From NCBI GenBank assembly GCA_019638695.1, contig JAHBTG010000004.1, positions 3,233 to 67,232 on the forward strand: a stretch of DNA of 64,000 nucleotides, in the 5' to 3' direction. Below, piece after piece: positions 43,966-58,079 of the stretch. The stretch's first letter is position 1; each line of letters opens with the position of its first letter. The position numbers and the translations under genes were made by a program. Source of the DNA: Bacteroidota bacterium (lineage in GTDB: Bacteria > Bacteroidota > Bacteroidia > J057 > JAJTIE01). The notes beneath the pieces are model-generated. The model worked only from the letters and a program-made list of their open reading frames with translations. It had not been told where the DNA came from and ran no database searches.

Positions 43966-44053
43966 TGGGGAGTTAGCTATGCAAGTTGAAGTAGTTCTTA
44001 TCTTGAAATGGAGCGTAGTAGTCAGGGCAAATTTGGAGAAAAAACAAACCAAA

Positions 44054-44094
44054 AAGGCAATGGAGTAGAGCTTTTTACTCTACTCCATTGCCTT
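44054..44094 (-). terminator. intrinsic terminator after the 1485-aa gene
   Basis: 17-bp perfect stem AAGGCAATGGAGTAGAG / CTCTACTCCATTGCCTT with a 7-nt loop. On the minus strand it is followed by TTTTTGGTTTGTTTTTT. It lies 59 nt downstream of the stop at 44153. Confidence 0.8.
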
Positions 44095-44152
44095 AATTTT
44101 CCCCATACGGTATCAGCATGTACTTCCAGACTAACTTTTGAGTGTTCAAAAA

Positions 44153-47100
44153 TTAGGGATTAGGCACACTGGTAATCCGCAGGTCATTGTTATTGGTTCT
44201 GACAATCGTCACATCAAAAGCGTTCAGATCACCATCCAGTGACGCATCGGTTTGTGTGTACACATTAGAGGGGTTGCTTATAGCAGCCACGCGGGTGCGG
44301 AAAAAGTCTGCGGCATTCACCTCTCCTACATCATTAAACACAGCATTGTCATAGACGTTGCCCGCCAGCATCGCATACACAACATAGGCCGGGGCTGCGT
44401 TCCTATTGATAATGGCCACTGCAGGCGTCAGACCGGGATCCTGGTAGTAGTTCGCAGGGTTATTGAATGACCAGCTGCTGGGCACCACGCTATTCAGGGG
44501 TACGGCTACACTGGACATGATGGGCAGGTGGTTTTTATGACGCACCACGATATAGTAGTTGCCATCAGGATTGCCATCGCAGAAGTTTACAGCAGGGTTA
44601 GTTGCCGTAGCAAAATCACGCACACTACCGTCTGCCATCAGCCACGCATAGGCGGAATCAATAGCGGGCCCTGTGGCGGAAGAACGAATCTCCAGCTTGA
44701 GCACATCCACCGCATCTATAGGCAGGGACGCCATAACGGTATTGCTATCAGCAGGCTGTACAAACCCGGTAGGATCCAGTGCGGGGCTGCCATCTCCAAA
44801 GACATCCGTCAGCAGCGTATACGTACTGTTCAGCAGCGCAAAGTTCATCGGCACCGAACCAGTAGTGTCTATACAACCTTCCATAAAGACGGTAAGCTCC
44901 ACACCCAGGCCGGTCGTTCTATTAATGACAACCGTATTGGCCATATCCTCTGTACAAGTGAAAGGAACGGTTCTTTGACCTGTAACGGTCACCGTAATAT
45001 TGCCGGATGCCGGGAACAGCGTCAATGGCAGCATCAGTACAGAGCCGTTACCAGGCGTAGAACTGGACAGCGGAGTGATTCCGTCAAAAGCGGTGTAGGA
45101 TACTCCGGCATCAGATGCCAGTATGCGAATGACAGGAGTATCGGTTCCGCAGAAGGAGGTATCCCCTTCCACTGTTTTGAGATCTACCCGGTTACTGGTG
45201 ATGACCAGGGTATCATACGTTACGCAGAAACCATCTGAAACCGACCACATCAGGCTATCGGGAGTGCCGGGCACAGAAGTGGTAGTAAAGAGAGAGTTCG
45301 GATCAGAAGGATCGGTCACTGTGAAGCCGGCTGTAATGGGCACCCAGGTACCTATATAAGGGCTGGTCACAGGCGTGGCATTCAGGGTGGTGTTGTCAGT
45401 ACAAATGTTCTGGTCGGCGCCGGCAGCAGCTACGGCAAAGTTCAGGGTCACATCATCCGAATGTGCCACAGAACAGCCGGGACCAGGGGCAGTTGTCTGC
45501 CAGCGGAAGACGTAGGTACCGGGCACATCAACCGTCACGGCTGTATTATAGGTGGAGTTGCCAGGGTTATAAGTGGGTGAGCCGGGGCCACTGACAAATA
45601 ACCAGTTGGCAGAGACTCCTAGCTGAGTCAAGGCATCCGAACCCTCAAGGGTAACAGAAAGACCGCAGATATTGGAATCAGGTCCTGCTGACACATAGTT
45701 AAACACAACGGTCACGTCATCAAACGGATGCGACACGCAGCCTAACGGCAAAGTACCGGTACTCTGCCAGCGCAAGGTATAGCTACCGGGAGTATCTACG
45801 GTAATCACAGAAGTAGGCGCAGTATCATTGGAGAATACAGGAGCTCCGCTGCCACCAGGGCTGGCAATTACAGACCACTGACCGCCGGAAGCACCGATGA
45901 TCGTGGGATCGAATCCTGCCAATCCAGCGGTGTTGGCATCACAAAGCACCAGGTCCGGTCCTGCCGTCACAAAGTTGAAGGTGATATCCACACTATCTAC
46001 AGGCGTACAAGCTCCCACCACGTTACCGGTCCAGTAGAAACGATAGGTACCGGGCACATCAACCGTTACACCTGAAACGGGACTGCTGGCATCAGTAAAG
46101 GTAGCGGTACCAAGACCTGAAACCTGACTCCAGGTACCAATGGTAACAGGTGCTATCAGCGCGGGGGCATCCATGATATACGTGGAATCGCAGACGGTCA
46201 TGGGTGAAGTACCCGCTTCTATGAAGGCAAAAGTTACTTCTATACTATCTTGGGCAGAACAAGCACCCATAGTAGCGCTCCAGTAGAACTTATAGGTACC
46301 GGCAATACTGACACTTACCGTGCTGGTTTCTGAGCCGGGAGTAGCGATGGTCGCCACACCAGGATTGCCTACAGCTGCGCTCCATACACCGCCGGTGACG
46401 GCAGTAGCGTCAAAGGTATAAGTGCTGTCATTACAGACTGCCACGGGAGTAGTACCGGCTTCTACAAAAGCAAAGGTTACTTCTACACTGTCCTGCACAG
46501 AGCAGGCACCTACAGTAGCACTCCAGTAGAACTTATACACACCGGGAGTATTGACACTCACGGTGCTAGTTTCCGAGCCGGGAGTAGCGATGGTCGCCAC
46601 ACCAGGATTGCTTACAGCTGCGCTCCATGCACCGCCTGTCAAAGGCTCGGCATCGAACGTGTAGGTACTGTCATTACAAACTGCTGCAGGGGTAGTACCT
46701 GCCTCAGCAAAGGCAAAGGTCACTTCTACGCTGTCCTGGGCAGAACAAGCACCTATAGTAGCGCTCCAGTAGAACTTATACACACCGGGAGTATTGACAC
46801 TCACCGTGCTGATTTCCGAGCCGGGAGTAGCAATGGTCGCCACACCGGGGTTGCCTACGGCTGCGCTCCATACACCGCCGGTGACGGCTGTAGCGTCAAA
46901 GGTATAGGTGCTGTCGTTGCAGACTGTTACAGGCGTAGTACCGGCTTCTACAAAAGCGAAATCAATCTCTACACTATCCTGGACAATACCGCAAGGTACG
47001 CCTGCATTGTACCCCCAGTAAAACTTATAGAGACCGGGCGTATTGACACTCACGGTGCTATTATACAGGTTCACATCTGTGATAGTGGCCACACCGGGGT

Positions 47101-48610
47101 TACCTACTGCTGCGCTCCATACACCGCCGGTGACGGCAGCAGCTTCAAAGGTATAGGTACTGTCGTTGCAGACTGCTATAGGAGAGGTGCCGGCTTCTGC
47201 AAAATGGAAGGTTACCAGCAGGCTATCCTGAACAAGGCCGCAGCTGCCTACTGTGGCATCCGTTCTCCAGTACAGTTTATAAGTACCCGGGATAAGCGCT
47301 CTAGCCACAGAGGTCGGAGAAGCCGGGGTGTCAAAGCTGACGTTTATGGGGTCTTCAGCAACCCATATGCCACCGACGCCTAATGACACAGCCACCGGAT
47401 CTGCATAGAGTATAAGGGAATCGGCCCCACAGACCACGGAATCTCCACCGGCTTCGGTAAATACAAAGGTCAGGTCCACACTGTCTACCAATGACAGCGG
47501 AGGATCTGCCGTCCAGTAGGCACCATACGTACCGGCCGGGAAGCCCGGAGCCACACTTACAGAAGAAGTAGGACTAGTGGACGCAGCAAATAACAGGCTG
47601 CCAGGAGGATTTGAAGACCATGTTCCGGGAGAAACTACTATTGTGGAAGACGCATCCAGCAAAGTATAGGGACCAGCGCTACCACAAAGGGTATCATTGA
47701 TCAACGGAAAATCAATGGCCCAGAGCTGGGAAGTCACTACAACCGTATCTGTGTATACGCAACCATTGGCGGTTACGGTATATGACCATACCAGAGTATC
47801 GGCCAAGCCTCCGGCACCCAGGTTCCTGACGATGGAAGTAGGTGAAGAAGGTGTATCAAAAGTAGCCGTACTGGCACCGTGTGCACTCCATAATCCGGTC
47901 TCGCCGGTCATCAGCGGTTCGGCATAAAGCTCGAGCGTATCCACATAAATGGTGGAATCTATACCTGCGCTACGTTCCAAACGGGTAGAAAGCGGGGCAT
48001 CTGAGGTGCGGGCAACCGTAACGACAATAGGTGTTGAAATGGTCTGATGGATCAAAAAAACAGGATTCCCGAAACCGTCATCATCCCAGGAACCGATGGT
48101 ACCGGCAATCACAAACTGCGGGTTAATGTCCACTTCGCAATAAGGAGTTGCTGCAGCCCTGGCGTATATCGTACCAATCTTGACGGTATCATTCAGCAGG
48201 AACTGGTTGGGAGTGGGAATGGTGCCCGGAGAAGGGTACACATAGCTCTTGATAAACCGGACGATCAGGCGCCGGGAGAGTGAACTGACGCTCAGCACCA
48301 TGGGTTCATAGGGAACCGCGGGGTTAAACTCCCAGTCTGAAGTACCATTAAGGCGAGAGCCGGTGGTATCGACCAGCCTCGCACCCACACCATTACTGAT
48401 GGCAGCCCAGTCTGCAACGGTGAATTCAATGGGAATATCACCACTACCGATTTCAAGCGGCGTGGCCTGTTTGTTGATAATGAAGATATCAAACAAGAGC
48501 GAATCTGCGCCACCGCGGCGCTTCTCCATTCTTATCTCGTAGTTATATGATTGGGCAAACACATTAGCGCCCAATAATATGAACAGCATAGCGACGAGTA
48601 TCCTTTTCAA
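44153..48610 (-). CDS. giant secreted protein (1485 aa): cohesin-like N-module, many Ig-like repeats, dockerin-like C-module, no recognisable T9SS CTD
   Basis: TTG start at 48610 (plus strand ...tccttttcaa), giving the signal peptide MKRILVAMLFILLGANVFAQ. The repeated AGxxxxVCxxSTYxxxA...GGxWS...GxxTxxxxxSxTSxVSVxxPGxYKFYW module fills most of the protein. The last 250 aa are homologous to the C-terminus of the 646-aa protein. Confidence 0.88.
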   Translation of the reverse strand: MKRILVAMLFILLGANVFAQSYNYEIRMEKRRGGADSLLFDIFIINKQATPLEIGSGDIPIEFTVADWAAISNGVGARLVDTTGSRLNGTSDWEFNPAVPYEPMVLSVSSLSRRLIVRFIKSYVYPSPGTIPTPNQFLLNDTVKIGTIYARAAATPYCEVDINPQFVIAGTIGSWDDDGFGNPVFLIHQTISTPIVVTVARTSDAPLSTRLERSAGIDSTIYVDTLELYAEPLMTGETGLWSAHGASTATFDTPSSPTSIVRNLGAGGLADTLVWSYTVTANGCVYTDTVVVTSQLWAIDFPLINDTLCGSAGPYTLLDASSTIVVSPGTWSSNPPGSLLFAASTSPTSSVSVAPGFPAGTYGAYWTADPPLSLVDSVDLTFVFTEAGGDSVVCGADSLILYADPVAVSLGVGGIWVAEDPINVSFDTPASPTSVARALIPGTYKLYWRTDATVGSCGLVQDSLLVTFHFAEAGTSPIAVCNDSTYTFEAAAVTGGVWSAAVGNPGVATITDVNLYNSTVSVNTPGLYKFYWGYNAGVPCGIVQDSVEIDFAFVEAGTTPVTVCNDSTYTFDATAVTGGVWSAAVGNPGVATIATPGSEISTVSVNTPGVYKFYWSATIGACSAQDSVEVTFAFAEAGTTPAAVCNDSTYTFDAEPLTGGAWSAAVSNPGVATIATPGSETSTVSVNTPGVYKFYWSATVGACSVQDSVEVTFAFVEAGTTPVAVCNDSTYTFDATAVTGGVWSAAVGNPGVATIATPGSETSTVSVSIAGTYKFYWSATMGACSAQDSIEVTFAFIEAGTSPMTVCDSTYIMDAPALIAPVTIGTWSQVSGLGTATFTDASSPVSGVTVDVPGTYRFYWTGNVVGACTPVDSVDITFNFVTAGPDLVLCDANTAGLAGFDPTIIGASGGQWSVIASPGGSGAPVFSNDTAPTSVITVDTPGSYTLRWQSTGTLPLGCVSHPFDDVTVVFNYVSAGPDSNICGLSVTLEGSDALTQLGVSANWLFVSGPGSPTYNPGNSTYNTAVTVDVPGTYVFRWQTTAPGPGCSVAHSDDVTLNFAVAAAGADQNICTDNTTLNATPVTSPYIGTWVPITAGFTVTDPSDPNSLFTTTSVPGTPDSLMWSVSDGFCVTYDTLVITSNRVDLKTVEGDTSFCGTDTPVIRILASDAGVSYTAFDGITPLSSSTPGNGSVLMLPLTLFPASGNITVTVTGQRTVPFTCTEDMANTVVINRTTGLGVELTVFMEGCIDTTGSVPMNFALLNSTYTLLTDVFGDGSPALDPTGFVQPADSNTVMASLPIDAVDVLKLEIRSSATGPAIDSAYAWLMADGSVRDFATATNPAVNFCDGNPDGNYYIVVRHKNHLPIMSSVAVPLNSVVPSSWSFNNPANYYQDPGLTPAVAIINRNAAPAYVVYAMLAGNVYDNAVFNDVGEVNAADFFRTRVAAISNPSNVYTQTDASLDGDLNAFDVTIVRTNNNDLRITSVPNP
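44156..44905 (-). other. shared C-terminal module with dockerin-like tandem Ca-loop motifs, copy in the 1485-aa protein
   Basis: FMEG...VDVLKLEIR...AYAWLMADGSV...YYIVVRHKNHLPIMS...AGNVYDNAVFNDVGEVNAADFFRTRV...TDASLDGDLNAFDVTIVRTNNNDLRITSVPNP(stop). The second loop DASLDGDLNAFD fits the EF-hand/dockerin DxxxDGxxNxxD pattern. Confidence 0.5.
46200..47210 (-). repeat. four near-identical tandem coding repeats (period about 243-249 nt) inside the 1485-aa gene
   Basis: For example, the 37-nt string GAGCCGGGAGTAGCGATGGTCGCCACACCAGGATTGC occurs at 46332 and again at 46575 (243 nt apart). The protein units (E)AGTTPV(T/A)VCNDSTYTFDATAVTGGVWSAAVGNPGVATIATPGSE(I/T)STVSVNTPGVYKFYWSAT(I/V)GACS(A/V)QDSVEVTFAF are almost identical. 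Confidence 0.85.
48044..48550 (-). other. cohesin-like N-terminal module, copy in the 1485-aa protein (aa 21-189)
   Basis: SYNYEIRMEKRRGGADSLLFDIFIINKQATPLEIGSGDIPIEFTV...DTVKIGTIYA. This is the most divergent of the three copies. Confidence 0.4.
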
Positions 48611-48673
48611 AGCAGTTATATTTTTAAGGTTAGCCAGAGGATCTATTTTGCGAAAGGAGATAACAACAGGAGA

Positions 48674-50944
48674 TTAGCGCTCCAGTTCAATCAGTTTGCG
48701 GGTTGCCGTAACGTCATTGACACGCAGCACCACAGTGTAGGTACCAGCGCTTACCGATTGGAGACGAGACCCAAACTCATAGGTATAGGTACCTGCAGGC
48801 AGCGTACCGTCCTGCAGAGCCGCCACACGGGCGCCCAGGAGGTTGTAGACTTCCAGCGTGATCTCAGCAGACCTATCCAGTGTAAGATAGAGTCCGGTTT
48901 TACCCACAAACGGGTTAGGATAAGCCTGGAATCCAACGCCCTCGGCAGCCAGATCGCGGTTGGTGAGGCTCACCACCACAAAGTCTGAGGTAGCGGCGCC
49001 GCAATCATTAGTAGCCGTCACCGTGTAATTGCCGGATTGTGTAGCCACCAGCATGTTGGTATTGGCGCCATCGATCAGAATACCGTTATGGAACCATTGG
49101 AGATTGCCCGGGGCATTCGTAGTCAGCAGGTTATCCGTTGCCTGAATAACCGGCTGAACAGGTTGAGGGGTGATCTGTACGGTAATAGCGGTAGAACGCT
49201 CTGAGATACAGTTGCCATCCTTGCTGGATGCACGATAGATACCTTCTTCTGTAACCAGGAGCTCACTGTCCGTATTCGTCATGATATTACCGTTCTGGTA
49301 CCATACATGTGTACCGGTAACGCTGGAAGAAAGCATGAGGTTTTCGTTCTCGCACACTTCTACAACACCGTTACTTACAGTGCGGCTGGCAGAAACTTCG
49401 GGAGCGGCCACACTGCGCTCGGCAATGACAGCCGCATTAGAGGTAGAGGAAGCGCATCCGCCGTCCATCATCACAGCAGTATAGGTACCGGGCTGGGTAG
49501 CTACAAAATCAGCACCTGCGCCATTGATGGACTGGCCGTTGCGATACCAGGCATGCACACCCGTCCGGTTACTGCTAATGGTAATTTGCTCGCCCTGGCA
49601 GATCTCGCTTGCGGCAGCCGCAATTTCAGGTGTCTCCAGCACAGCAGTGCGGATAGTAATGGTGGCAGGCTGGGTGTTGCAATCTGTAATGGCCTCGGCA
49701 CGGTATACACCGGGCTGAGCCACTATGAGCTGGGTACCGCTGGACTGCACCAGGCTATTATCCTGGTACCAGCGGTGGTTGCCCGAAAAGTCGGAGGTAA
49801 TGGTTACCGTCTGTCCGGAGCAAATCACACCCGCTGACGAAGCAGACAGGTTGGGATTCACATTATCTACGATGCTAACCGTAACCGGATCTGAAGCCGT
49901 AGACTGACAGTTGCCGTTCACACTCACCACAGTGTACGTACCGGCCTGGTTGGCCACCAACTGGTTACCTGACCCTGTAATAACCTGGCCGTTGCGATAC
50001 CAGATGTGCGTACCTGATTTGTTAGAATTGAGCGTAACCGAAGAAGAAGCGCAGATCTGAGTGGCGCCGGCAGCAGAAAGTTCCGGAGTCTCTGCGGTGC
50101 TGTAAGCGAGGTCCACCATCTGAGAGACCTCGGAACGGCAGGAGTAGAACATCGATACCGCAGTATAGGTACCGGGCTGGGTAGTTACCAGCTCATTTTC
50201 AGAGGCGCTGGGGATCAGCTCGCCATTGCGGTACCATTCATGAGGACCGGCATAGTTCGAAGTAAGTTCAAAGCTCTCACCCGGGCAAACAGCAGTGCCG
50301 CCAGAAGCCAGCTGAGGCACGGCAGGCTTGTAACACAGCGGAAAATCGGGTGCAGGGTTCACGTAATCGCCATTGGATTTGATATCAGAGTAGATGTACT
50401 CTGTGATCATATTACCGGAGCCGGGATTAAAAGGATCTTCTACCGTGCGGGTCTCCCATTTCATCACAGCAGTAGGAGCCACCCGCCATGTGGTGGTCGT
50501 AAACCCGCTATGATCGGTTACGGGGATCACCAAACGCCCCACACGGGTGCGGGTAGAAGTGACCATAGCACCCAATGTCTTGTCATCAGGGGTTTTATGC
50601 AACGTATTCAGTACCACGTAGTTAGTCCCGTTACCTTTGGAAAGGGACTCATAATGAGCGGGCATGGTCTGCACATGCCAGGGCCCGCTCTTGGTAAAGT
50701 CAATAGAAGTGGAAGGCAGATTGAGATAATTCTGATTGACAAAGAGGGAGAAGTTGCAGGCAGCCAGTGCAAAGTCCGGCCCGCTGGTTTTCTGGATATA
50801 GATATCTACATTCAGTTTTCCTGGCTCAACAGACTGCTCCACTTCCATGCGGAAGAACTTGTTTTGAGCAAAAACCTGATTGAGCGCCAGCAGGCAGCAA
50901 AGTGCCGTGAGCAAAGCAAATGAGGCGATACGTTTGCGCAACAT
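48674..50944 (-). CDS. secreted protein (756 aa): cohesin-like N-module, six Ig-like C..W(Y/F)xNG repeats, T9SS type A C-terminal sorting domain
   Basis: Start placed at the ATG at 50944 (MLRKRIASFALLTALCCLLALNQVFAQ), 13 nt after the upstream stop; an alternative ATG at 50974 overlaps the upstream gene. There are six repeats such as TQICASSSVTLNSNKSGTHIWYRNGQVITGSGNQLVANQAGTYTVVSVNGNCQSTAS. C-terminus YPNPFVGKTGLYLTL...LEVYNLLGARVAAL...GTYTVVLRVNDVTATRKLIELER matches the type A CTD. Confidence 0.88.
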   Translation of the reverse strand: MLRKRIASFALLTALCCLLALNQVFAQNKFFRMEVEQSVEPGKLNVDIYIQKTSGPDFALAACNFSLFVNQNYLNLPSTSIDFTKSGPWHVQTMPAHYESLSKGNGTNYVVLNTLHKTPDDKTLGAMVTSTRTRVGRLVIPVTDHSGFTTTTWRVAPTAVMKWETRTVEDPFNPGSGNMITEYIYSDIKSNGDYVNPAPDFPLCYKPAVPQLASGGTAVCPGESFELTSNYAGPHEWYRNGELIPSASENELVTTQPGTYTAVSMFYSCRSEVSQMVDLAYSTAETPELSAAGATQICASSSVTLNSNKSGTHIWYRNGQVITGSGNQLVANQAGTYTVVSVNGNCQSTASDPVTVSIVDNVNPNLSASSAGVICSGQTVTITSDFSGNHRWYQDNSLVQSSGTQLIVAQPGVYRAEAITDCNTQPATITIRTAVLETPEIAAAASEICQGEQITISSNRTGVHAWYRNGQSINGAGADFVATQPGTYTAVMMDGGCASSTSNAAVIAERSVAAPEVSASRTVSNGVVEVCENENLMLSSSVTGTHVWYQNGNIMTNTDSELLVTEEGIYRASSKDGNCISERSTAITVQITPQPVQPVIQATDNLLTTNAPGNLQWFHNGILIDGANTNMLVATQSGNYTVTATNDCGAATSDFVVVSLTNRDLAAEGVGFQAYPNPFVGKTGLYLTLDRSAEITLEVYNLLGARVAALQDGTLPAGTYTYEFGSRLQSVSAGTYTVVLRVNDVTATRKLIELER
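50348..50863 (-). other. cohesin-like N-terminal module, copy in the 756-aa protein (aa 28-199)
   Basis: NKFFRMEVEQSVEPGKLNVDIYIQKTSGPDFALAACNFSLFVNQ...TSTRTRVGRLVI...TTWRV. Closely alignable with 43432-43863. Confidence 0.5.
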
Positions 50945-50957
50945 ATAGTTAGTGGGA

Positions 50958-52898
50958 TTAATTCTTAGGTGCATTGGAAATACGCAGTTGGCGAGAGTTG
51001 AAGCTGGTGATAGTCATGTCGCTGCTATTGGAATAGCCATCGAAGCGGACATCGATCTGCTGGTAGATCTGGTCTCCTGCAAGCAGGTTGTTAGCCACCC
51101 GCTGGCGGAAGAAGTCGGCAGAGTTCACCTCATCTTCATCATTAAAGATCAGGTTATCATACACGTTGCCACCTATCATGGCATAAGCCCCGGGATTCAC
51201 AAATACCAGGTTATTGTTAGCAACATTGCCCAGCACGGACAAGTCCAGAGATACCGGCGTAGTACTCAAGGTATGGGCGCTTGCGGTAATAATGGAGATG
51301 TGGTTACGGTGGCGCACAACCACGTTGTAGCTACCGGCGCCTACTCCGCAAAACATAAGGTGATTCCCTCCTGCATTACCGGAGAAGAACGGCTGCACAC
51401 TGCCATCAGACATTACCCAGGCGTAGCAGGTATCCAGCTTGGCGGTAGGCGGATTGGGCCAGAGCTCTACTTTGATGACGTCCACCGCACCGGCAGGAAC
51501 GGCCACGTCACGATACATCTTGGGAACCGGCTGGCCGTTATACAAGGCAACCGGGCTCGTTTCGGAGTACATACTGTCCAGCAAACTGGAATAGCTGGTA
51601 GTGCTGATCTTGTTAAGCGTATCGGACATATCTCCCTCAACCGTACGATACGCACCTTCCAGGTACACCTTTATATCCAGCCGGACACTTTCATTGACTG
51701 TGACAAGCACACTGGAACTGGTATCTCCCAAACAACCCGTGTTGGAGATCGTCCGTAAGGCAAAGTGAGTGGGCGTAGGCTGCCCGGGTATAATACCGGG
51801 GCTATAGAACACGTCAGAAGTCTGGCCAGGCACGTCTGCCCAGGTAGAACCGCCGTCCGCGCTGAGAATCCACTGCAAGTCGGCAGTGGGATCATATCCG
51901 GTAGCTTCCAGGCGAATAGTATCCACCTCGCAAATGCTAGAAGCAGAGATAACTGCCGCCGTACCCGCAGGGGAAGCGCATGCCCCAAAGGCGTAATAAC
52001 CCAACTGAATAGGGTTGAAGGCATTGTTCACTCCTATATAATAAGGAGGGGAACCATTCTGATAGAAATCATTCCCCATGGAACCATATGGCTGCACACC
52101 ATCCGGACTATACACGATATGCGTAGAAGGAATCTGCGCAGGAGAGATGCCGGAGGAAAACTTAAGTTCTATATCCCCCGCATCGTTATAGGTACCTCCG
52201 AAAGCAGAGATCCGCCAGTGGTGGTCCGGAAATACGAGGCCCACCCCAGGACCGGGGTTATTGAGCGGGGGAGTAGCCAATGCTTCGGCCTGCACAAAAG
52301 TGCCTGCATCCGCCACAATAGAACCAAAGTTAATCTTCTTGGCCTCGGTAGCCGTACCCACAGGAAGAACTAATGAAGTATTATCTACATTAATGGCCAC
52401 AGGGCCAACCACCCAGCCATTGGCACCCAGGTCAATCGAAGGAGATACGGGTATTGTTCTGTCAAAAATGAGAAGATCCGAAGCGCTGCCATTGGTATAG
52501 ATCATGGCTTCCGGAGCATCCAGGGAAGAAAATACGCTCAGGGTATCCTGTACATGGAGAGAAGCCGTAGCAGGAGACTCCAGCACAAGGTATCCTACCG
52601 TGTCATGACCAGCAGCTTTATATAACAGATTGCCGGCACCGGTAAATCGTACGGCCACCTCATCCTCTGTATTGTGGCTAAGCCGCCCGTCATTACTAAG
52701 TGTATCGGCCAGGTACAGGCTGCCTTGCAGGAGCAGCTCGCCCCCGGTGGCTATCCCCACATTACCCGTTACATACACCTGTTCCCCATTGCGCACGGAA
52801 AGTACTCCTCCATTACCTACATGCAGGCGTGTCTGCCCCCATACCTGAAACGGGAGCAGCAAAACAGCAAGTAAGGAACCGTGAAGTAGTAGTCTCAT
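50958..52898 (-). CDS. secreted protein (646 aa) ending in the dockerin-like C-module, no recognisable T9SS CTD
   Basis: Signal peptide MRLLLHGSLLAVLLLPFQVWGQ; ATG at 52898 verified. The last 242 aa are homologous to the C-terminus of the 1485-aa protein. Confidence 0.85.
   Translation of the reverse strand: MRLLLHGSLLAVLLLPFQVWGQTRLHVGNGGVLSVRNGEQVYVTGNVGIATGGELLLQGSLYLADTLSNDGRLSHNTEDEVAVRFTGAGNLLYKAAGHDTVGYLVLESPATASLHVQDTLSVFSSLDAPEAMIYTNGSASDLLIFDRTIPVSPSIDLGANGWVVGPVAINVDNTSLVLPVGTATEAKKINFGSIVADAGTFVQAEALATPPLNNPGPGVGLVFPDHHWRISAFGGTYNDAGDIELKFSSGISPAQIPSTHIVYSPDGVQPYGSMGNDFYQNGSPPYYIGVNNAFNPIQLGYYAFGACASPAGTAAVISASSICEVDTIRLEATGYDPTADLQWILSADGGSTWADVPGQTSDVFYSPGIIPGQPTPTHFALRTISNTGCLGDTSSSVLVTVNESVRLDIKVYLEGAYRTVEGDMSDTLNKISTTSYSSLLDSMYSETSPVALYNGQPVPKMYRDVAVPAGAVDVIKVELWPNPPTAKLDTCYAWVMSDGSVQPFFSGNAGGNHLMFCGVGAGSYNVVVRHRNHISIITASAHTLSTTPVSLDLSVLGNVANNNLVFVNPGAYAMIGGNVYDNLIFNDEDEVNSADFFRQRVANNLLAGDQIYQQIDVRFDGYSNSSDMTITSFNSRQLRISNAPKN
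50961..51686 (-). other. shared C-terminal module with dockerin-like motifs, copy in the 646-aa protein
   Basis: KVYLEG...VDVIKVELW...CYAWVMSDGSV...YNVVVRHRNHISIIT...GGNVYDNLIFNDEDEVNSADFFRQRV...IDVRFDGYSNSSDMTITSFNSRQLRISNAPKN(stop). Confidence 0.5.
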
Positions 52899-52992: not shown

Positions 52993-53029
52993 CAAAAAAA
53001 AAGGAGGGTAAATACCCTCCCTTTTTTTC
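52993..53029 (-). terminator. intrinsic terminator after the STAND/WD40 gene (bidirectional shape)
   Basis: GGAGGG / TAAATA / CCCTCC hairpin (53003-53020), flanked by A9 on one side and T7 on the other. It lies 13 nt downstream of the stop at 53043. Confidence 0.7.
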
Positions 53030-53042
53030 AGATATATAATTT

Positions 53043-56000
53043 TTACTTTAACAGGATACGCTGGCCGGGGCGCAGCTCATCGCTCTTCAGGTTATTGATA
53101 GCCCTGAGCTCTTCTACTTTCATCCCGTATTTTTTGGCAATGCTGTAAAGCGTTTCACCTTCTTTCACCTTATGTTTTTCCGGACGATTCTGCCAGTTCT
53201 GCATAGGATCCAGGCGGTCTACTTCCCGCAGTTCCGTGCCGTCTGTTTCATCCAGCAGGGTACCGTCTTTGGTATCGCGCAGGCCGGTGGCATCGGCATC
53301 CAGTTTCTTGCGGTCTACAATATAGAAGTACTCTTTCTCTTTGGGTGTCAGATCCCGTTTCTTAAGATTGGTACGCACAAAGTCTATGAGTTCCTGGCGG
53401 TTGGGCAGTACTTTAAAGATATGCACGCTAAACTTAGGCTCCTGCGGGAAGCGGGAGATGCTCATGGCAATCTTGCTGGCATCCGGGCTGAAGACCGCAT
53501 AATACCCCAATCCTTCATGGCCGGAATAAGTAGCCAGGTGCGTGAAGTACTGGGCGTCCCACAGGCGAGAGGTTTTATCCTCTGAGCTGGTAAGGATGTA
53601 CTTGCCGTCACTGCTGAACTCGGCATAATAGACCACATTATCATGGCCGCCTACCCCGCCTTCCAGCCCGCCCAGGCGCTTGCCGGTGGCTGTGCTCCAC
53701 ACCTTAGCCGTGAAATCGGCCGAGGAAGTCACCAGCTTGTTATCTTCGGGACTAAAGGCGGCATGCAATACAGGCGCTTTATGACCCAGCAAACGGCTGC
53801 GGATATTCCCGGTAACCCCATTCCAGATAATGGCAGTACCATCCTCGGAAGTAGTAACCACCATCGTACCGTCATTACTGAAAGTACTGAAGGTTACGGG
53901 TGCAGAGTGGCCATTCAACACCGCAATAAGCGATCCGCTCTCGGTATCCCACAGGCGGGCGGAACCATCCCTGCTGGTAGTCACCAGGCGGGTGCCCTGC
54001 GGGTTGAAAGAAGCATGCAACACCGCGTCCGTATGGCCTTCCAGTACGGCAATCTTGGTGCCTGTATTGGCGTCATACAAGCGCGCAGTCTTGTCCAGGC
54101 TGGTCGTCACCACCCGGTGGTTATCATCTGAGATGGCCGCATGAGTGAGCAAATTGCCATGTCCGCGGAATACGGATAAGCTGCGCTTACGCTCAAAGTC
54201 CCAGAGGCGGGCTGTAAAGTCCTCTGCAGTAGTGACGATATAGCGCCCGTCTTTGCTAAAGGCAGCCCTGTCTACAATGTGGGTGTGCCCGCTCAATACC
54301 CATAGCTCCTTGCCGGTAGCCACGTCCCATACACGGGCGGTCTTGTCCCAGCTGGAAGTGATCAGGCGGGTGCCATCGGGACTGAAGCGGTTATAGATCA
54401 TCTTGTTATTGTGACCCAGCATCAACTGCAGGGGCTTTTCATTAACAATCTTATCCGCTGCATTATAAAGGGCGGCCTCCGCCTCCGGCACATAGGGGCG
54501 GTCGGTAGTATCTCCTATCGTCTCAGGCAGGGCATATTCAGCCAGAAGCACGCCCACTTCCGGATTACCTGACTGCACTTCATCCCGTGCCTGGTTACTC
54601 TGGAACATAGACTCGTTCATGTAGGCGCTATTGCGCTGGCGTTTGGCTTCTGCCAGCGCCTCCAGTGCACGCTGCTTCTCCTCCCGGGCAATTTTCTCAT
54701 TCACCTCGGCACGGTCGCGCTGGCGCTCAGCTTCCTGGCGCTGCATTTCTGCCAGCGCTTTCTGCTCCATAGCTATCTTCTGCTGCACTTCCGCAAAACG
54801 ACGGCGTTCATCCGCCGTGAGGCGTTCGCGGCGGGCGATCTTGGTCTGAATCATAGCCTGCAGCTTGTTTCGCTCGGCCAGCAACTGCTGCAGCTTGGCG
54901 CGGCGTTCCTGCTCCACCGCTTTCTGGCGCTGAATCTCGGCCTGGCGTGTCTGCTGCTCGGCAATCTCTTTTTGCTTGAGCGCGTCTTTCTGCGCGGCGA
55001 TGGCTTTGATCCGCTCGCCGTTTGCCCAGAAAGCCAGTGCACTGGCCAGCAGGAGCAACGCAGAAATAAGCACAATGATGAACCACATGATGCGGCGCTG
55101 GCGCTCCAGCTTTTCTCTGCTGAGCAGCAGGAACTCATCAATGTCTTCCAGGTAAAGCTCGGCCTGCTCCATAGGCTCCAGCTCCGGCACAATCTCCTCG
55201 GGGGTGATGTAACGGCGTATCCAGGCAGGTGTAGGCCGGGTATCTTCATACCAGGCATTGAAGAAGTTGTAGTTACCGCTGTTGAGCAGGTACTTGGGCA
55301 GGCAGTCATTCTCCAGCCAGCGGTTGACCTGCACCTTGAAGTCTGTATAGATAGACACCCGCTTATGCTCGCGCTCGGCCCATTCTACCAGTTTGTCCCA
55401 GTTACGGATCAGGGCCTCATGGGTAATGTCCAGTACCGTGTTCGGCGCCAGCTCGCGTGTCTCGGGGCGGCTGGGGTCTATGTATGGCTGCACAAAGGTA
55501 TTTCCCGGCTCACGGAAAATATTGAGAAGGCGGCCCACCATCAGGTAGTCCACATCATCGCGGCCAATAATATCGGTGATCTCCTGCAAGGACATGCGGT
55601 TGCGCACCGCACGGTTCTCATCTATCTTGGTAAGGCCGGTAAACGCGTAGCGTATGATCTCCTGCGCCTTCTCCTTGGTGACGTGCGGCTCATACCGCTC
55701 ATTATAATAGATGTGTGCGTTATTATAAAGCTCGTTGGCGTGCCGGTTCAGGATATTGCGCAGCTTGGGCTTGAGATACAGCTGGCGGCTTTCATCCGGC
55801 AGCTTACTGAACCACCGCTGGTACTCTTCTACCTGGTTGCGGGGCAGCTTGAGCTCTGCCAGGCCCCCTACCTTGGCATAATGGATAAGGTCCAGCTCTT
55901 CGGTGCCTTGCTTGGCCTCGGTCCATATCTGGTGGAGGGCATGCTGCAACACGGGCAGCTGGTCTATACCATCTCCCAGGTCATTTAATATACGCTGGCT

Positions 56001-57785
56001 GAGGCGCACGCTCAGGCGGTTGCCATTGAGGAAGGCGGGGGCTTCGATCACCTCCTGGATTTCCTCGCGCTTCAGACGGGGAACAAAGTAGGTACTGCTG
56101 CCAATCAGCTCGGCAAAACCGCGGAACGCTACACACTGACCGATAAAGTCGCTGCGCATGGTAAAGAGCACGTAGATGGGAAGCCCCTGCTCTCTGGCAA
56201 TGCGAATGGTCTCGATCAGTACGTTTATCGTGATTTGCGCAGTAGGACTGGCCACCCCATCCCGGTAGTTTTCTGAATTGGTAAAGAATTCTTCAAACTG
56301 GTCTACCAGGATCAGCAGGTTGGCGGCCTGGCGTTTCATCTGCTTACGGGTTTCCTCATCGCCGTCCACCCACTCCAGGCTGGTATAGTCGCAATAGAGG
56401 TCGGACTTTTTGTAAAGATCCACCAGAGCAGAGAAACCATAGCTCAGCGCACTCTCCACGGCATCGGGGTTGCGCATGCGCAGTTCCTGGGAAAGGGCAT
56501 GGCTGAGGTTGCGCAGCGGCTGGCGTTCCGGACGGAAGTCGGCCACGGCCCATTTGGAGAAGCTGGTCTTCAGAAAGCCGCCTTTGAGGCTGGGAATCAC
56601 ACCTGCGTAAATGAGGGAGGATTTGCCATCGCCGGAAGAACCGGTGACCATGACAAACTTCTCCTCTCCCATCATCTCCATGATAGTGTCTATATGGCGT
56701 TCGCGACCTTTGAAGAAGATAGATTCATCTTCATTGAAAGGACGCAGACCGGTATAGGGGCAGAAAATGGTCTCACTGATACGGCCGGTTTCTTTTACCC
56801 GGGCATACACCTCTTCTACCTTGCTCAATACGTCGGCAGCAGGCACTACCTCCAGGCCGATCTGGGGAGCACGGAAGCGGATAAAACGGTTGCGACGAGG
56901 CTCATCCTCACCGATAAGCAGGAAGGGTGTACTGGATGAGGCACCGCCCACCACCTTCCACATCTGCTTTACAAAACTGATGGCCCAGTCAGAGGATTCT
57001 TTGAAGTAAATGACCGCGAGCTTGCTCTTGAGTATCTTCTCACGGGCTTCTTCGCGAAAATCCAGGTCGCTCTCCGGGATAACGGTAAGTGTCGTCAGTT
57101 TCAGGGACTCTCCCAGCTTTTCAATCGTCTGGTAGCAATCCCCGGCATCCTGCACGTTGGCGATGAATGCAATATCATATTCCTTGTTGGGCAGCACGCG
57201 GGCGGCCTCGCTTTCCAGGAATGACTTGAGATCTCCGATCAACTCTGCACCACTGGGCACGCTGGAGAACATCATACCTGCATCCAGGTGGTTCTGGATA
57301 TGGTTAATGAAATCCTGCTGTTCACCCTGCAGCAACTTACCCTCCAGGGACTGCTGCCAGAAGAAGAGCTTGTATTTGGCACCGGTCAGCTTGAGTTTGC
57401 TGGTGGCCACATCATACTGATAGCGGAGATGGCTCACACCGGCATCGCTGCGCAGGGTGCTGCCAAAATCTCCTCCCAAGAGGAAAATAGCAAAGTCTGA
57501 ATCCTGGATGTTTTTCTCGGTTTTTTCGCGCAGCTCATCCTCAGATGTATAGCGGTCCTGATAACCGAGCACATTATAGCCTGCCTTCAGCAGCATGACG
57601 GCAAAGTCTTCCCGTGCCTGCTGTATGTCCTGGGGTACCCAGGCCAGAAAAACAGTAGGCTTGGCGGGGTCAAATACGACAGGGGTATTATCCTCCACGC
57701 CTGAGAACGTACCGCGCATATTTTCTACGGATACCTCACCGGCATTGCCGGGGGTTTCAATAGTCAGAGAATCCTGTTCACTCAT
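53043..57785 (-). CDS. 1580-aa STAND-type P-loop NTPase: two DUF4062/TIR-like N-modules, NTPase, one TM helix, coiled coil, 7-8 WD40 repeats, C-terminal LysM
   Basis: aa 42-195 and 200-335: two flavodoxin-like beta-alpha modules (TVFLAWVPQD...SDFAIFLLG...SHLRYQYDVA; YDIAFIAN...KLAVIYFKESSDWAISFVKQMWKV). aa 341-362: CPYTGLRPFNEDESIFFKGRE. Walker A VMVTGSSGDGKSSL (aa 378-391, nt about 56,613-56,654). Walker B LLILVDQFEE (aa 490-499). ITHEALIRNW at aa 787-796. TM helix IMWFIIVLISALLLLASALAFWA (aa 899-921, nt about 55,023-55,091). Charged coiled coil at aa 922-1055. WD40 blades (GH...WD-type) at aa 1120-1445 (nt 53,451-54,428). LysM HKVKEGETLYSIAKKYGMKVEELRAINNLKSDELRPGQRILLK at aa 1537-1580 (nt 53,046-53,177). 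Confidence 0.92.
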   Translation of the reverse strand: MSEQDSLTIETPGNAGEVSVENMRGTFSGVEDNTPVVFDPAKPTVFLAWVPQDIQQAREDFAVMLLKAGYNVLGYQDRYTSEDELREKTEKNIQDSDFAIFLLGGDFGSTLRSDAGVSHLRYQYDVATSKLKLTGAKYKLFFWQQSLEGKLLQGEQQDFINHIQNHLDAGMMFSSVPSGAELIGDLKSFLESEAARVLPNKEYDIAFIANVQDAGDCYQTIEKLGESLKLTTLTVIPESDLDFREEAREKILKSKLAVIYFKESSDWAISFVKQMWKVVGGASSSTPFLLIGEDEPRRNRFIRFRAPQIGLEVVPAADVLSKVEEVYARVKETGRISETIFCPYTGLRPFNEDESIFFKGRERHIDTIMEMMGEEKFVMVTGSSGDGKSSLIYAGVIPSLKGGFLKTSFSKWAVADFRPERQPLRNLSHALSQELRMRNPDAVESALSYGFSALVDLYKKSDLYCDYTSLEWVDGDEETRKQMKRQAANLLILVDQFEEFFTNSENYRDGVASPTAQITINVLIETIRIAREQGLPIYVLFTMRSDFIGQCVAFRGFAELIGSSTYFVPRLKREEIQEVIEAPAFLNGNRLSVRLSQRILNDLGDGIDQLPVLQHALHQIWTEAKQGTEELDLIHYAKVGGLAELKLPRNQVEEYQRWFSKLPDESRQLYLKPKLRNILNRHANELYNNAHIYYNERYEPHVTKEKAQEIIRYAFTGLTKIDENRAVRNRMSLQEITDIIGRDDVDYLMVGRLLNIFREPGNTFVQPYIDPSRPETRELAPNTVLDITHEALIRNWDKLVEWAEREHKRVSIYTDFKVQVNRWLENDCLPKYLLNSGNYNFFNAWYEDTRPTPAWIRRYITPEEIVPELEPMEQAELYLEDIDEFLLLSREKLERQRRIMWFIIVLISALLLLASALAFWANGERIKAIAAQKDALKQKEIAEQQTRQAEIQRQKAVEQERRAKLQQLLAERNKLQAMIQTKIARRERLTADERRRFAEVQQKIAMEQKALAEMQRQEAERQRDRAEVNEKIAREEKQRALEALAEAKRQRNSAYMNESMFQSNQARDEVQSGNPEVGVLLAEYALPETIGDTTDRPYVPEAEAALYNAADKIVNEKPLQLMLGHNNKMIYNRFSPDGTRLITSSWDKTARVWDVATGKELWVLSGHTHIVDRAAFSKDGRYIVTTAEDFTARLWDFERKRSLSVFRGHGNLLTHAAISDDNHRVVTTSLDKTARLYDANTGTKIAVLEGHTDAVLHASFNPQGTRLVTTSRDGSARLWDTESGSLIAVLNGHSAPVTFSTFSNDGTMVVTTSEDGTAIIWNGVTGNIRSRLLGHKAPVLHAAFSPEDNKLVTSSADFTAKVWSTATGKRLGGLEGGVGGHDNVVYYAEFSSDGKYILTSSEDKTSRLWDAQYFTHLATYSGHEGLGYYAVFSPDASKIAMSISRFPQEPKFSVHIFKVLPNRQELIDFVRTNLKKRDLTPKEKEYFYIVDRKKLDADATGLRDTKDGTLLDETDGTELREVDRLDPMQNWQNRPEKHKVKEGETLYSIAKKYGMKVEELRAINNLKSDELRPGQRILLK

Positions 57786-58034
57786 GGGTGGCTGGATTAT
57801 AGTTGAATAGCTTTCCTTAACAAACCGTAAATAAGCGAAATTTCCACCTAGCTATCCACGGAAGTGGGTTGAAAAAACCCTTAAAGATAAGTGTTTTTTT
57901 CCACAAATAACCCCGCTTTCGGGTTTATGAAATGCGAATACTCCACCGGCTTAACATAACGAAGACCTATATGAAAACAACTATGGATATAGACCTTCCA
58001 ATAAAAATGACAGGTGCGCCTGACAAAAAAATTC

Positions 58035-58042
58035 TAAATTTG
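58035..58042 (+). promoter_or_regulatory. candidate -7 box (TAAATTTG) for the purE-like gene
   Basis: TAnnTTTG match 38 nt upstream of the ATG at 58080. Confidence 0.35.
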
Positions 58043-58079
58043 GCATCCACTCTAGACATTTAACGCGACTTTACCCCAT

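What the first reader, a model, noticed from the sequence alone, without database searches (positions are those of the whole stretch)
53043..57785. Monocistronic transmembrane STAND NTPase: DUF4062/TIR-like x2 - NTPase - TM - coiled coil - WD40 - LysM
This 1580-aa gene has its own AT-rich upstream region and its own terminator. Domain order is as follows:
- two tandem flavodoxin-like modules (aa 42-195 and 200-335); the first resembles DUF4062 (VF.....D....R......L...G ... S....YD.A), and I could not find a TIR catalytic Glu in either
- a STAND-type NTPase with CPYTGLRPFNEDESIFFKGRE, Walker A GSSGDGKS, Walker B LLILVDQFEE and ITHEALIRNW, hallmarks I associate with the WD40/TPR-linked 'nSTAND'-type NTPases discussed in comparative-genomics work on NTP-dependent conflict systems
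- a single strongly hydrophobic 22-residue helix (aa 899-921), preceded by RQRR
- a charged coiled coil of about 135 aa
- a 7-8-blade WD40 propeller
- a canonical C-terminal LysM

LysM is a peptidoglycan-binding domain. Together with the positive-inside flank of the TM helix, it argues that the coiled coil, WD40 and LysM half is periplasmic, and that the NTPase and the TIR-like modules are cytoplasmic. The result would be an NLR-like switch that senses something in the cell envelope across the membrane. Characterised bacterial STAND defence proteins, such as the Avs/NLR-like families, are instead cytosolic sensors.

Hydrophobic segments after the NTPase do, as I recall, occur in this family. 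The LysM tail is what gives independent topological evidence here.
Basis: partly seen in the sequence, partly recalled or inferred. Interest (0 to 1): 0.75.

Follow-up and report, generated by a model that had tools for sequence, protein, structure and literature searches.

The report
Membrane-spanning STAND NTPase with periplasmic propeller
This is a real 1580-residue inner-membrane protein that joins a cytoplasmic NLR-type ATPase switch to a periplasmic, cell-wall-tethered WD40 propeller, so it looks like a receptor that reports on the cell envelope, but its TIR-like head has lost the catalytic residue and its biological trigger is unknown.

Summary
ORF 53043-57785 (-) encodes, in order:
- a DUF4062-like module
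- a second TIR/NDT-like module
- a Pfam nSTAND1 NTPase
- one strong TM helix
- a ~154-aa heptad stalk
- an 8-repeat WD40 propeller
- a LysM domain

It has its own terminator.

Four sequence-based lines support an N-in/C-out topology:
- LysM is present in 38 of 44 orthologues.
- The positive-inside bias holds in 43 of 43.
- Cys is depleted after the TM (0.09% against 0.60%).
- The stalk length is conserved.

Three things change the picture.
1. The TM after nSTAND1 is a family-wide trait. It occurs in hundreds of Bacteroidota relatives and in some Thermodesulfovibrionia and Electronema proteins.
2. The two N-terminal modules are a constant "adaptor". In sister operons it is a separate protein, alone or fused to TIR or to cyclase-TIR, just upstream of two TM-nSTAND1 genes.
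3. The catalytic Glu of DUF4062 is Gln here and in most family members, so NADase output is unlikely.

The gene context and codon usage are housekeeping-like, and there is no defence island.

TM-bearing bacterial STANDs sensing periplasmic signals have already been proposed in the literature. I file this as a new variant of a known kind. The topology is well supported; the function is inferred.

The parts
53043..57785 (-). Whole ORF, 1580 aa plus stop codon
   Evidence: identical to database protein P0001, named as a LysM protein of a Bacteroidetes MAG
57786..58079 (-). AT-rich upstream spacer (38.8% GC), with a sigma-70-like match at 57823-57796
   Evidence: The promoter match is only a consensus hit, and Bacteroidota promoters differ from the sigma-70 consensus.
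57666..57785 (-). Disordered, unconserved N-tail (aa 1-40); no effector domain
   Evidence: pLDDT below 50; 13-32% identity among orthologues
57192..57665 (-). Module 1 (aa 41-198): DUF4062-like TIR-fold domain. The catalytic Glu position is Gln123 (nt 57417-57419).
   Evidence: Pfam DUF4062 E 2e-8. Alignment to KpSwz PDB 10wc_A places Q123 at the E97 position. That column is Q in at least 90% of orthologues and in 46 of 52 adaptors.
56766..57191 (-). Module 2 (aa 199-340): second TIR/NDT-like flavodoxin-fold domain. It is the best-conserved part of the adaptor (N210, D213, S254, F261, W267, A268, Q274, W276, G280, G281, G292, N299, P307).
   Evidence: AF2 pLDDT 92.5. Foldseek finds DNPH1, BtpA, MAL and AbTir TIR at TM about 0.5-0.6 with weak E. 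Conservation. No Pfam hit.
55101..56765 (-). nSTAND1 STAND NTPase (aa 341-895): Walker A at nt 56619-56642, Walker B at nt 56289-56318, TMRSD at nt 56148-56162
   Evidence: Pfam PF20703, E 2e-71; motifs invariant in alignment A2; coordinates
55023..55091 (-). Single transmembrane helix (aa 899-921), preceded by RQRR
54561..55022 (-). Pro/Gly-free charged heptad stalk (aa 922-1075), about 22 nm if fully helical
   Evidence: Length is 151-166 aa in 43 of 43 orthologues, at only about 30% identity.
53427..54560 (-). Conserved linker (aa 1076-1115) plus 8-repeat WD40 propeller (aa 1116-1453)
53181..53426 (-). Poorly conserved charged linker between propeller and LysM (aa 1454-1535)
53046..53180 (-). 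C-terminal LysM peptidoglycan-binding domain (aa 1536-1580)
   Evidence: Pfam LysM E 6e-15; NCBIfam LysM-region hits to MltD, DipM and YneA; present in 38 of 44 orthologues
52993..53030 (-). Intrinsic-terminator-like hairpin plus T-run

Best explanation
The gene encodes a bitopic inner-membrane STAND protein with N-in/C-out topology.

**Cytoplasmic side**
- A disordered tail of about 40 aa.
- A pair of TIR-fold modules that have lost the catalytic Glu: DUF4062-like with Gln123, then a second TIR/NDT-like module.
- An intact nSTAND1 NTPase switch.

**Periplasmic side**
- A heptad helical stalk of about 154 residues with a conserved length, which looks like a molecular ruler.
- An 8-repeat WD40 propeller.
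- A LysM domain that tethers the tip to peptidoglycan.

**Proposed mechanism (inferred).** The propeller binds a ligand, or registers a change, at the level of the cell wall. The change in the oligomeric or conformational state of the stalk and TM helix is passed to the NTPase. The NTPase exchanges or hydrolyses NTP and oligomerises, as other STAND proteins do. This clusters the N-terminal TIR-like adaptor pair. Output then comes from scaffold assembly or partner recruitment, not from NAD+ hydrolysis by the DUF4062 module itself.

In sister operons the same adaptor pair is a separate protein encoded just upstream of two TM-nSTAND1 genes. It often carries a canonical TIR domain and a class III (PycC-like) cyclase. 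The family's output is therefore most likely nucleotide- or NAD-based signalling. The window's protein carries no such enzyme domain.

**Shown and inferred.** Shown: the domain anatomy, the family relationships and four sequence-based lines of evidence for topology. Inferred: the direction of signalling, the ligand and the output.
For: **Anatomy:**

**Topology**
- One TM at a fixed distance after Walker A in 117 of 120 homologues.
- K+R 5.8 against 2.7 in the 15-aa flanks, with N greater than C in 43 of 43 orthologues and in 70 of 74 sister proteins.
- LysM in 38 of 44 orthologues.
- Cys 0.60% on the N-side against 0.09% on the C-side, with zero Cys in about 660 aa in 26 of 43 orthologues.
- Stalk length 151-166 aa in 43 of 43 orthologues, with heptad periodicity.

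**Intact switch:** Walker A, Walker B and the sensor-like motifs are invariant. The NTPase is the best-conserved region, at 60-91% identity.

**Adaptor logic**
- aa 37-332 is 35% identical (E 1e-66 to 1e-68) to the C-terminal 300 aa of the gene directly upstream of the sister nSTAND1-TM genes.
- Those proteins are adaptor-only, TIR-adaptor or cyclase-TIR-adaptor.

**Dead DUF4062**
- The KpSwz E97 position aligns to Q123.
- The catalytic role of that Glu is reported in bioRxiv 10.64898/2026.05.01.722283 and 10.64898/2026.06.25.731849.
- The column is Q in 46 of 52 adaptors and in 35 of 60 aligned cluster representatives.
Against: - No topology predictor (DeepTMHMM or Phobius) and no experiment was available. 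All topology evidence is compositional or comes from domain logic, and the orthologues are related, so their counts are not independent.
- No ligand, partner or effector is identified for this protein. Neighbourhoods beyond the closest relatives share nothing.
- A Gln at the catalytic position does not strictly exclude another chemistry or a ligand-binding role.
- Four full-length orthologues lack LysM, so PG tethering is not essential to the family.
- Some relatives carry HEAT repeats after the TM, which is unusual for a periplasmic domain.
Confidence: 0.55

Rival explanations
1. It is a classical abortive-infection STAND defence protein, in the manner of Avs, bNACHT or Swarozyc. On sensing phage, the NTPase oligomerises and the DUF4062 domain depletes NAD+.
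For: - DUF4062 proteins are TIR-like NADases in anti-phage defence.
- DUF4062-STAND-WD40 is the TEP1/NWD layout.
- Sister operons carry TIR and a PycC-like cyclase.
Against: - The catalytic Glu is Gln123, and this is conserved.
- Module 2 has no conserved Glu.
- PADLOC gives no match.
- There is no defence island in 5 different neighbourhoods.
- GC3 and codon usage equal those of housekeeping genes.
- The WD40 region is not hypervariable.
- The sensor lies on the periplasmic side, where phage proteins are scarce.
Confidence: 0.12
2. It is a lineage-specific housekeeping envelope protein. The cytoplasmic NTPase acts inside-out, or it acts as a stress-signalling receptor. In either case it organises or monitors a PG-tethered periplasmic propeller hub (compare TolA/TolB-Pal) and has nothing to do with conflict.
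For: - Full-length orthologues of 44-92% identity occur across many Bacteroidia MAGs, in different housekeeping contexts.
- Base composition is native.
- The protein has a TolA-like stalk of fixed length and a LysM tether.
- It has no enzymatic effector.
- The chromosome region holds the dcw cluster and T9SS gliding genes.
Against: - The family's sister operons attach TIR and PycC-like cyclase domains to the same adaptor. This is typical of conflict or nucleotide-signalling systems.
- STAND NTPases are signalling switches, not motors.
- No conserved envelope-biogenesis partner gene was seen.
Confidence: 0.25
3. The hydrophobic segment is not membrane-spanning, so the whole protein is cytosolic. 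The LysM would then be a decoy or bind a cytoplasmic glycan precursor.
For: Characterised STAND sensors fold their repeats back onto the NTPase. Some relatives have HEAT repeats after the segment.
Against: - The segment is 23 uncharged residues with KD 2.77 and dG_app about -4.3.
- Only its hydrophobic character is conserved, not its sequence.
- Positive-inside bias holds in 43 of 43 orthologues.
- Cys is depleted after it.
- LysM is present.
Confidence: 0.05

Closest known systems
TEP1 / NWD1 / NWD2-type STAND proteins (DUF4062-NACHT-WD40), and the bacterial 'TEP1-like' proteins mentioned in the Evangelion and Swarozyc preprints
   Same: An N-terminal DUF4062 TIR-like domain, a central STAND NTPase and C-terminal WD40 repeats, in the same order.
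   Different: - The NTPase is nSTAND1, not NACHT.
- A TM helix and stalk separate the NTPase from the propeller.
- There is a LysM tail.
- There is a second TIR-like module.
- The catalytic Glu is replaced by Gln, whereas TEP1 is reported to be an active NADase.
Bacterial NACHT/STAND proteins with C-terminal TM regions (Kibby et al., class 4 sensors; Kaur et al. 2020, 2021), and DGR-diversified NACHT-CLec proteins predicted to be periplasmic (Dore et al. 2024)
   Same: The idea that a STAND NTPase is membrane-embedded and reads intramembrane or periplasmic signals.
   Different: - Those are described as multi-TM regions or CLec sensors on NACHT proteins.
- Here there is one TM, a ruler-like stalk, a WD40 propeller and a PG-binding LysM that independently marks the compartment.
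- None of those has been tested experimentally for topology either.
Swarozyc / Evangelion DUF4062 NADases
   Same: The DUF4062 fold; the Pfam match is above the gathering score, and the S...[EQ]-[YF]..A motif is in register with KpSwz.
   Different: - The catalytic Glu (KpSwz E97, Eva01 E87) is Gln.
- There is no AUX domain.
- The module is fused to a STAND NTPase.
- It is not located in a defence island.
Avs (antiviral STAND) defence proteins
   Same: The tripartite logic: N-terminal output module, STAND NTPase, C-terminal repeat sensor.
   Different: - There are no PADLOC Avs hits.
- Avs proteins are cytosolic and sense phage portal or terminase; here the sensor is periplasmic.
- No nuclease, protease or active TIR effector is present.
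Sister operon of Bacteroidota: adaptor (with or without TIR, with or without cyclase), then two nSTAND1-TM genes, then a protein of about 6 TM helices
   Same: - The NTPase is 50-60% identical.
- The TM is at the same distance after Walker A.
- The same two-module adaptor is present, with Gln at the catalytic column.
   Different: - The adaptor is a separate protein.
- The C-terminal about 780 aa is an unassigned, weakly TPR-like domain instead of stalk-WD40-LysM.
- There are two paralogous NTPases plus a polytopic membrane protein.
Toll-like receptors and TolA (analogies only)
   Same: - TLR: an extracytoplasmic repeat sensor, one TM and a non-catalytic cytoplasmic TIR scaffold.
- TolA: an inner-membrane anchor plus a long charged helical periplasm-spanning domain.
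   Different: No homology is claimed. TLRs lack a STAND NTPase, and TolA lacks any cytoplasmic domain.

Membership tests
STAND NTPase, Pfam nSTAND1 (PF20703) | Profile match above the gathering score across the NTPase and helical/winged-helix region | tested here: met
   242.3 bits against a cutoff of 27.1, in two stretches covering profile positions 1-258 and 260-375
STAND NTPase, Pfam nSTAND1 (PF20703) | Intact Walker A (GxxxxGK[ST]) and Walker B (hhhhD[DE]) | tested here: met
   GSSGDGKS at aa 382-389 and LLILVDQFEE at aa 490-499; both invariant in alignment A2
DUF4062 / NIR TIR-like NADases (Swarozyc, Evangelion, TEP1) | DUF4062 profile match and TIR-like fold | tested here: met
   34.7 bits against a cutoff of 24.7; phmmer hit to KpSwz 10wc_A; AF2 model with DNPH1 and AbTir structural matches
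DUF4062 / NIR TIR-like NADases (Swarozyc, Evangelion, TEP1) | Catalytic Glu of the E-[YF] motif (KpSwz E97, Eva01 E87) | tested here: not met
   Gln123 (RYQYDVA) aligns to the E97A position. The column is Q in at least 90% of 22-44 orthologues, in 46 of 52 adaptors and in 35 of 60 representatives.
DUF4062 / NIR TIR-like NADases (Swarozyc, Evangelion, TEP1) | NAD+ hydrolase activity | not testable with these tools
   Needs an enzyme assay of aa 1-340, wild type and Q123E
Known anti-phage defence systems (PADLOC-DB v2: Avs, bNACHT, etc.) | Match to a defence-system protein model | tested here: not met
   Only coiled-coil noise: JetC at E 0.003 and LmuB at E 0.63 on the stalk
Known anti-phage defence systems (PADLOC-DB v2: Avs, bNACHT, etc.) | Location in a defence island or on a mobile element | tested here: not met
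   Neighbours are purE, porin O/P, a BamA-like gene and T9SS cargo. Orthologue neighbourhoods are housekeeping. GC3 and codon usage are native.
LysM peptidoglycan-binding domain (PF01476) | Profile match above the gathering score | tested here: met
   55.4 bits against a cutoff of 20.9, aa 1538-1579, profile positions 1-42 of 43
LysM peptidoglycan-binding domain (PF01476) | Binding to peptidoglycan or GlcNAc polymers | not testable with these tools
   Needs a pull-down with purified sacculi
WD40 beta-propeller | At least 7 tandem WD40 repeats | tested here: met
   Pfam WD40 E 2e-56 with 7 stretches; 8 GH...WD-type repeats by inspection
Bitopic N-in/C-out membrane protein | A single hydrophobic span with positive-inside bias and extracytoplasmic markers on the C-side | tested here: met
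   All evidence is sequence-based; no dedicated predictor or experiment was available.
TEP1/NWD-like architecture (DUF4062-NACHT-WD40) | A NACHT-clade NTPase and a contiguous cytosolic polypeptide | tested here: not met
   The best NTPase model is nSTAND1, with no NACHT hit. A TM helix interrupts the architecture.

The most novel reading that the evidence does not exclude
This would be a bacterial hybrid of Toll-like and NLR-like receptors. A periplasmic, peptidoglycan-tethered WD40 sensor is held at a fixed distance from the inner membrane by a ruler-like coiled coil. It signals through one TM helix to a cytoplasmic STAND NTPase. The output would be the assembly of non-catalytic TIR-fold scaffolds that recruit TIR or cyclase partners in trans. 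The protein would then be one member of a previously undescribed, Bacteroidota-wide family of trans-envelope STAND systems.
Probability: 0.3. Interest if true: 0.8.

Novelty: new variant of a known kind. Interest (0 to 1): 0.6.

Why it matters
All bacterial STAND/NLR-like immune sensors characterised so far work in the cytosol. This protein, and the several hundred Bacteroidota relatives found here, place the repeat "sensor" on the other side of the inner membrane.

The LysM tail, the Cys depletion and the fixed-length stalk give unusually clear sequence-level evidence for that topology. The idea of periplasm-sensing STAND switches has so far been only a remark in comparative-genomics papers. 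These features make it directly testable.

The family also offers a natural series for asking how STAND oligomerisation is coupled to TIR-fold modules, and whether Glu-less DUF4062 domains act as scaffolds or as ligand sensors. The series runs from adaptor alone, to adaptor with TIR, to adaptor with cyclase and TIR, to adaptor fused to the NTPase.

Tried and rejected
1. The search for homologous proteins with the adaptor alone (aa 37-335) returned no hit, although the protein itself is in the database. I treated this as a tool quirk. The exhaustive representative search replaced it.
2. A genome-contig scan with the single protein found nothing, and alignment A1 had no stretch conserved enough to search with. 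The NTPase alignment A2 worked.
4. hhalign of module 1 against module 2 gave E 0.05. There is no significant evidence that they are duplicates.
5. The 3.5-residue periodicity of the stalk is not significant; only the 7-residue periodicity is. A single-alpha-helix (ER/K-type) stalk rather than a coiled coil is therefore not excluded.
6. I considered a functional link to the downstream T9SS cargo and PorP cluster, which is syntenic in the two closest orthologue groups. I rejected it as unsupported. A terminator separates them, and more distant orthologues have unrelated neighbours.
7. I considered a link to the dcw cluster in the window. It lies about 22 kb away and shows no conserved association.
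8. Literature searches for nSTAND1, DUF4062, TM-STAND and LysM+WD40+NTPase found no description of this architecture.
Full report
**1. The observation**

The ORF at 53043-57785 on the minus strand is real: 1580 codons, starting with ATG. A long hairpin plus T-run follows it at 53030-52993. A 294-bp spacer of 38.8% GC precedes it, against 54.7% for the gene itself.

- DUF4062 at aa 45-127 (E 2e-8, above the gathering score).
- nSTAND1 from aa 343 to about 870 (E 2e-71).
- Seven scored WD40 repeats. Eight GH...WD units are visible, starting at aa 1124, 1166, 1208, 1250, 1292, 1334, 1380 and 1422.
- A canonical LysM at aa 1538-1579 (E 6e-15).

There is exactly one strongly hydrophobic segment, aa 899-921. 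Its Kyte-Doolittle mean is 2.77, and the runner-up in the protein is 1.08. Its additive insertion free energy is about -4.3 kcal/mol against at least +8.6 elsewhere; the scale values were recalled from memory.

The next roughly 150 residues contain no Pro or Gly, are 68% A/E/K/R/Q and show heptad periodicity beyond all 5000 shuffles.

**2. The N-terminal modules**

An AlphaFold2 model of aa 1-345, built from 22 orthologues, has pLDDT 86. It shows a disordered tail of about 40 residues and two five-strand/five-helix flavodoxin-like modules, at aa 44-195 and 203-333.

The two-module model and module 2 modelled alone (pLDDT 92.5) both find DNPH1/RCL and TIR domains as best structural neighbours: AbTir, RPS4, BtpA, MAL and SARM1. 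Significance is weak, with TM 0.5-0.7 and E about 1e-3. "Two TIR/NDT-like modules" is therefore supported.

Recent preprints show that DUF4062 is a TIR-like NADase whose activity depends on one Glu: E97 in Klebsiella Swarozyc and E87 in Eva01, within an E-[YF] motif. The deposited KpSwz chain carries E97A. It aligns to aa 45-132 of this protein and places Gln123 (RYQYDVA) at that position.

The Gln is at least 90% conserved among the full-length orthologues. It is present in 46 of 52 adaptors from all fetched loci. It is the commonest residue (35 of 60) among cluster representatives of the whole adaptor family, against only 4 Glu. Module 2 has no conserved Glu either; its near-invariant residues are N210, D213, S254, F261, W267, A268, Q274, W276, G280, G281, G292, N299 and P307.

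It matters because the DUF4062 module fails a defining test for the NADase family.

**3. Relatives**

The protein is identical to a database entry from a Bacteroidetes MAG. It has 43 full-length orthologue clusters at 44-92% identity, all from Bacteroidia MAGs. Below them lies a much larger family of about 1350-aa proteins in Cyclobacteriaceae, Chitinophagaceae and others. That family is 50% identical over the NTPase but lacks the N-terminal modules.

In 117 of the 120 listed proteins one hydrophobic helix sits about 515-520 residues after Walker A. A scan of species-representative genomes found 292 or more relatives across Bacteroidota, including Balneolaceae, Saprospiraceae, Hymenobacter and Sphingobacteriales. 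Nearly all have that helix.

More distant nSTAND1 proteins repeat the NTPase-TM-repeat layout:
- Adaptor-only operons in Bacteroidales-type MAGs, with nSTAND1-TM-WD40.
- A Thermodesulfovibrionia nSTAND1-TM-WD40 protein.
- Electronema nSTAND1-TM-HEAT proteins.

The transmembrane helix is thus a family trait. What is special to this clade is the stalk-WD40-LysM ectodomain and the fusion with the N-terminal modules.

**4. The adaptor**

In sister loci the gene directly upstream of the nSTAND1-TM gene ends in about 300 residues that are 35% identical to aa 37-332 of this protein, at E 1e-66 to 1e-68. An HMM of the two modules finds such a gene upstream of the NTPase in essentially every locus with enough flank.

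Four forms occur:
- Adaptor alone, about 290 aa.
- TIR-adaptor, about 530 aa.
- Class III cyclase-TIR-adaptor, about 705 aa.
- Adaptor fused to the NTPase, which is this clade.

An exhaustive search of 1.84 billion representatives finds only 95 adaptor clusters, and most of them are adaptor-only. The cyclase matches Pycsar PycC models. The TIR keeps a WxxE-type motif.

The sister operon continues with a second paralogous nSTAND1-TM gene and a membrane protein of about 6 TM helices.

By Rosetta-stone logic the adaptor works physically with the NTPase. Where enzymatic outputs exist in the family, they hang on the adaptor's N-terminus. The window's protein has only a disordered, unconserved tail there.

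**5. Topology**

Four sequence-level lines agree on N-in/C-out:
- LysM is a peptidoglycan-binding domain. It is kept in 38 of 44 orthologues; two of the six exceptions are fragments.
- K+R in the 15 residues before the helix averages 5.8, against 2.7 after it. The N-flank is higher in 43 of 43 orthologues and in 70 of 74 sister proteins.
- Cysteine is 0.60% before the helix and 0.09% after it. The roughly 660-residue ectodomain has no Cys in 26 of 43 orthologues, including this one. That is expected for a domain exposed to the oxidising periplasm and unusual for a cytosolic WD40 protein; the comparison rests on my own knowledge.
- The Pro-free stalk is 151-166 residues long (median 154) in all 43 orthologues, although only about 30% identical. 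If helical it would be about 22 nm, the scale of a Gram-negative periplasm (my own knowledge). This resembles the charged helical domain II of TolA.

The orthologues are related, so these counts are not independent tests. No dedicated predictor or experiment was available.

**6. Context**

The neighbours are purE, a phosphate-selective porin, a beta-flower protein and a BamA-like Omp85 on one side. On the other side lies a run of T9SS cargo genes ending in PorP/SprF. The window also holds the dcw cell-wall cluster.

The downstream T9SS run is syntenic in the closest orthologue groups. More distant orthologues sit among unrelated housekeeping genes. No locus looks like a defence island, and PADLOC gives no hit. 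GC3 is 0.665 against 0.664 for housekeeping genes, and codon usage correlates at r = 0.89.

The NTPase is the most conserved region (60-91% identity). The WD40 region is moderately conserved (39-75%), not hypervariable.

**7. Mechanism**

The best-supported reading is a trans-envelope STAND switch, working as follows:
- A PG-tethered propeller is held by a ruler-like stalk.
- It senses a ligand or a change near the cell wall.
- The signal crosses through the single TM helix, probably by changing the oligomeric state.
- The nSTAND1 NTPase then oligomerises and clusters the Glu-less TIR-fold adaptor pair.
- Output follows by scaffold assembly or recruitment rather than by NAD+ hydrolysis.

Three things cannot be decided from sequence: whether the trigger is an invader or endogenous envelope stress, whether signalling might instead run inside-out, and whether the adaptor binds a nucleotide ligand. 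I put 0.55 on this mechanism as stated. I put much more, about 0.8, on the anatomy and topology alone.

**8. Comparison with what is known**

- The layout resembles TEP1/NWD-type DUF4062-NACHT-WD40 proteins and follows the Avs-like tripartite logic. Several membership tests fail, however: the NTPase is nSTAND1, the catalytic Glu is absent, there is no PADLOC match and there is no defence island.
- The idea that some bacterial STAND/NACHT proteins carry TM regions and read periplasmic or intramembrane signals is already in the literature (Kibby et al.; Dore et al.; Kaur et al.).
- I found no description of the nSTAND1-TM-stalk-WD40-LysM architecture, of the two-module adaptor, or of the sister operon.

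I therefore rate the finding as a new variant of a known kind, with interest 0.6.

Noticed in passing
L009:5850-16906, L010:5808-16868, L011:6403-16868, and most of L012-L068: A conserved four-gene operon is widespread in Bacteroidota. Its order is: adaptor (alone, TIR-fused, or PycC-like-cyclase-TIR-fused), then nSTAND1-TM (about 1350 aa), then a paralogous nSTAND1-TM, then a membrane protein of about 268 aa with about 6 TM helices. I found no description of it in the paper library. The cyclase plus TIR combination recalls Pycsar.
   Followed up: partly
window 54561-55022 (aa 922-1075): The stalk length is held at 151-166 residues in 43 of 43 orthologues despite only about 30% identity. This is molecular-ruler-like behaviour. 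At about 22 nm it would be roughly the width of a periplasm.
   Followed up: partly
window 35371-52898 (- strand): Directly downstream of the gene lies a run of T9SS cargo genes:
- a 646-aa protein with no Pfam match
- an Ig_7/Por_Secre_tail protein
- a 1485-aa protein
- a 2549-aa CHU_C protein

The run ends with PorP/SprF. The first genes are syntenic in the closest orthologue loci (L001, L005).
   Followed up: partly
window 10439-18481 (+) and 4408-9999 (-): There are two giant T9SS proteins: a 2680-aa SprB-repeat/PKD/CHU_C gliding-adhesin-like protein, and an 1863-aa Por_Secre_tail protein. The host is probably a gliding Bacteroidota.
   Followed up: no
window 22194-31464 (- strand): This is the dcw cell-wall synthesis cluster (PBP3 with PASTA, MurE, MraY, MurD and others), which marks the window as core chromosome.
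   Followed up: no
window 33223-33822 and 33779-35341 (- strand): A SUKH/SMI1-KNR4 protein of a family often described as immunity proteins overlaps by 44 nt the end of a PAS-SpoIIE (PP2C) phosphatase gene.
   Followed up: no
L087:6983-11158, L088: Cable-bacteria (Candidatus Electronema) nSTAND1 proteins have a hydrophobic helix followed by about 900 aa of HEAT/PBS-lyase repeats. If the helix spans the membrane, HEAT repeats would be periplasmic, which is unusual.
   Followed up: no
P0129, P0141 (adaptor-only proteins): A few adaptor-family members keep Glu at the catalytic column (SKPEYEYKKA, SITEFEFQKA). The family may therefore contain both active and inactive DUF4062 modules.
   Followed up: no
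The search for homologous proteins returned zero hits for aa 37-335, although the full protein is in that database with 100% identity. This probably reflects a limitation of the word index, not a biological result.
   Followed up: yes
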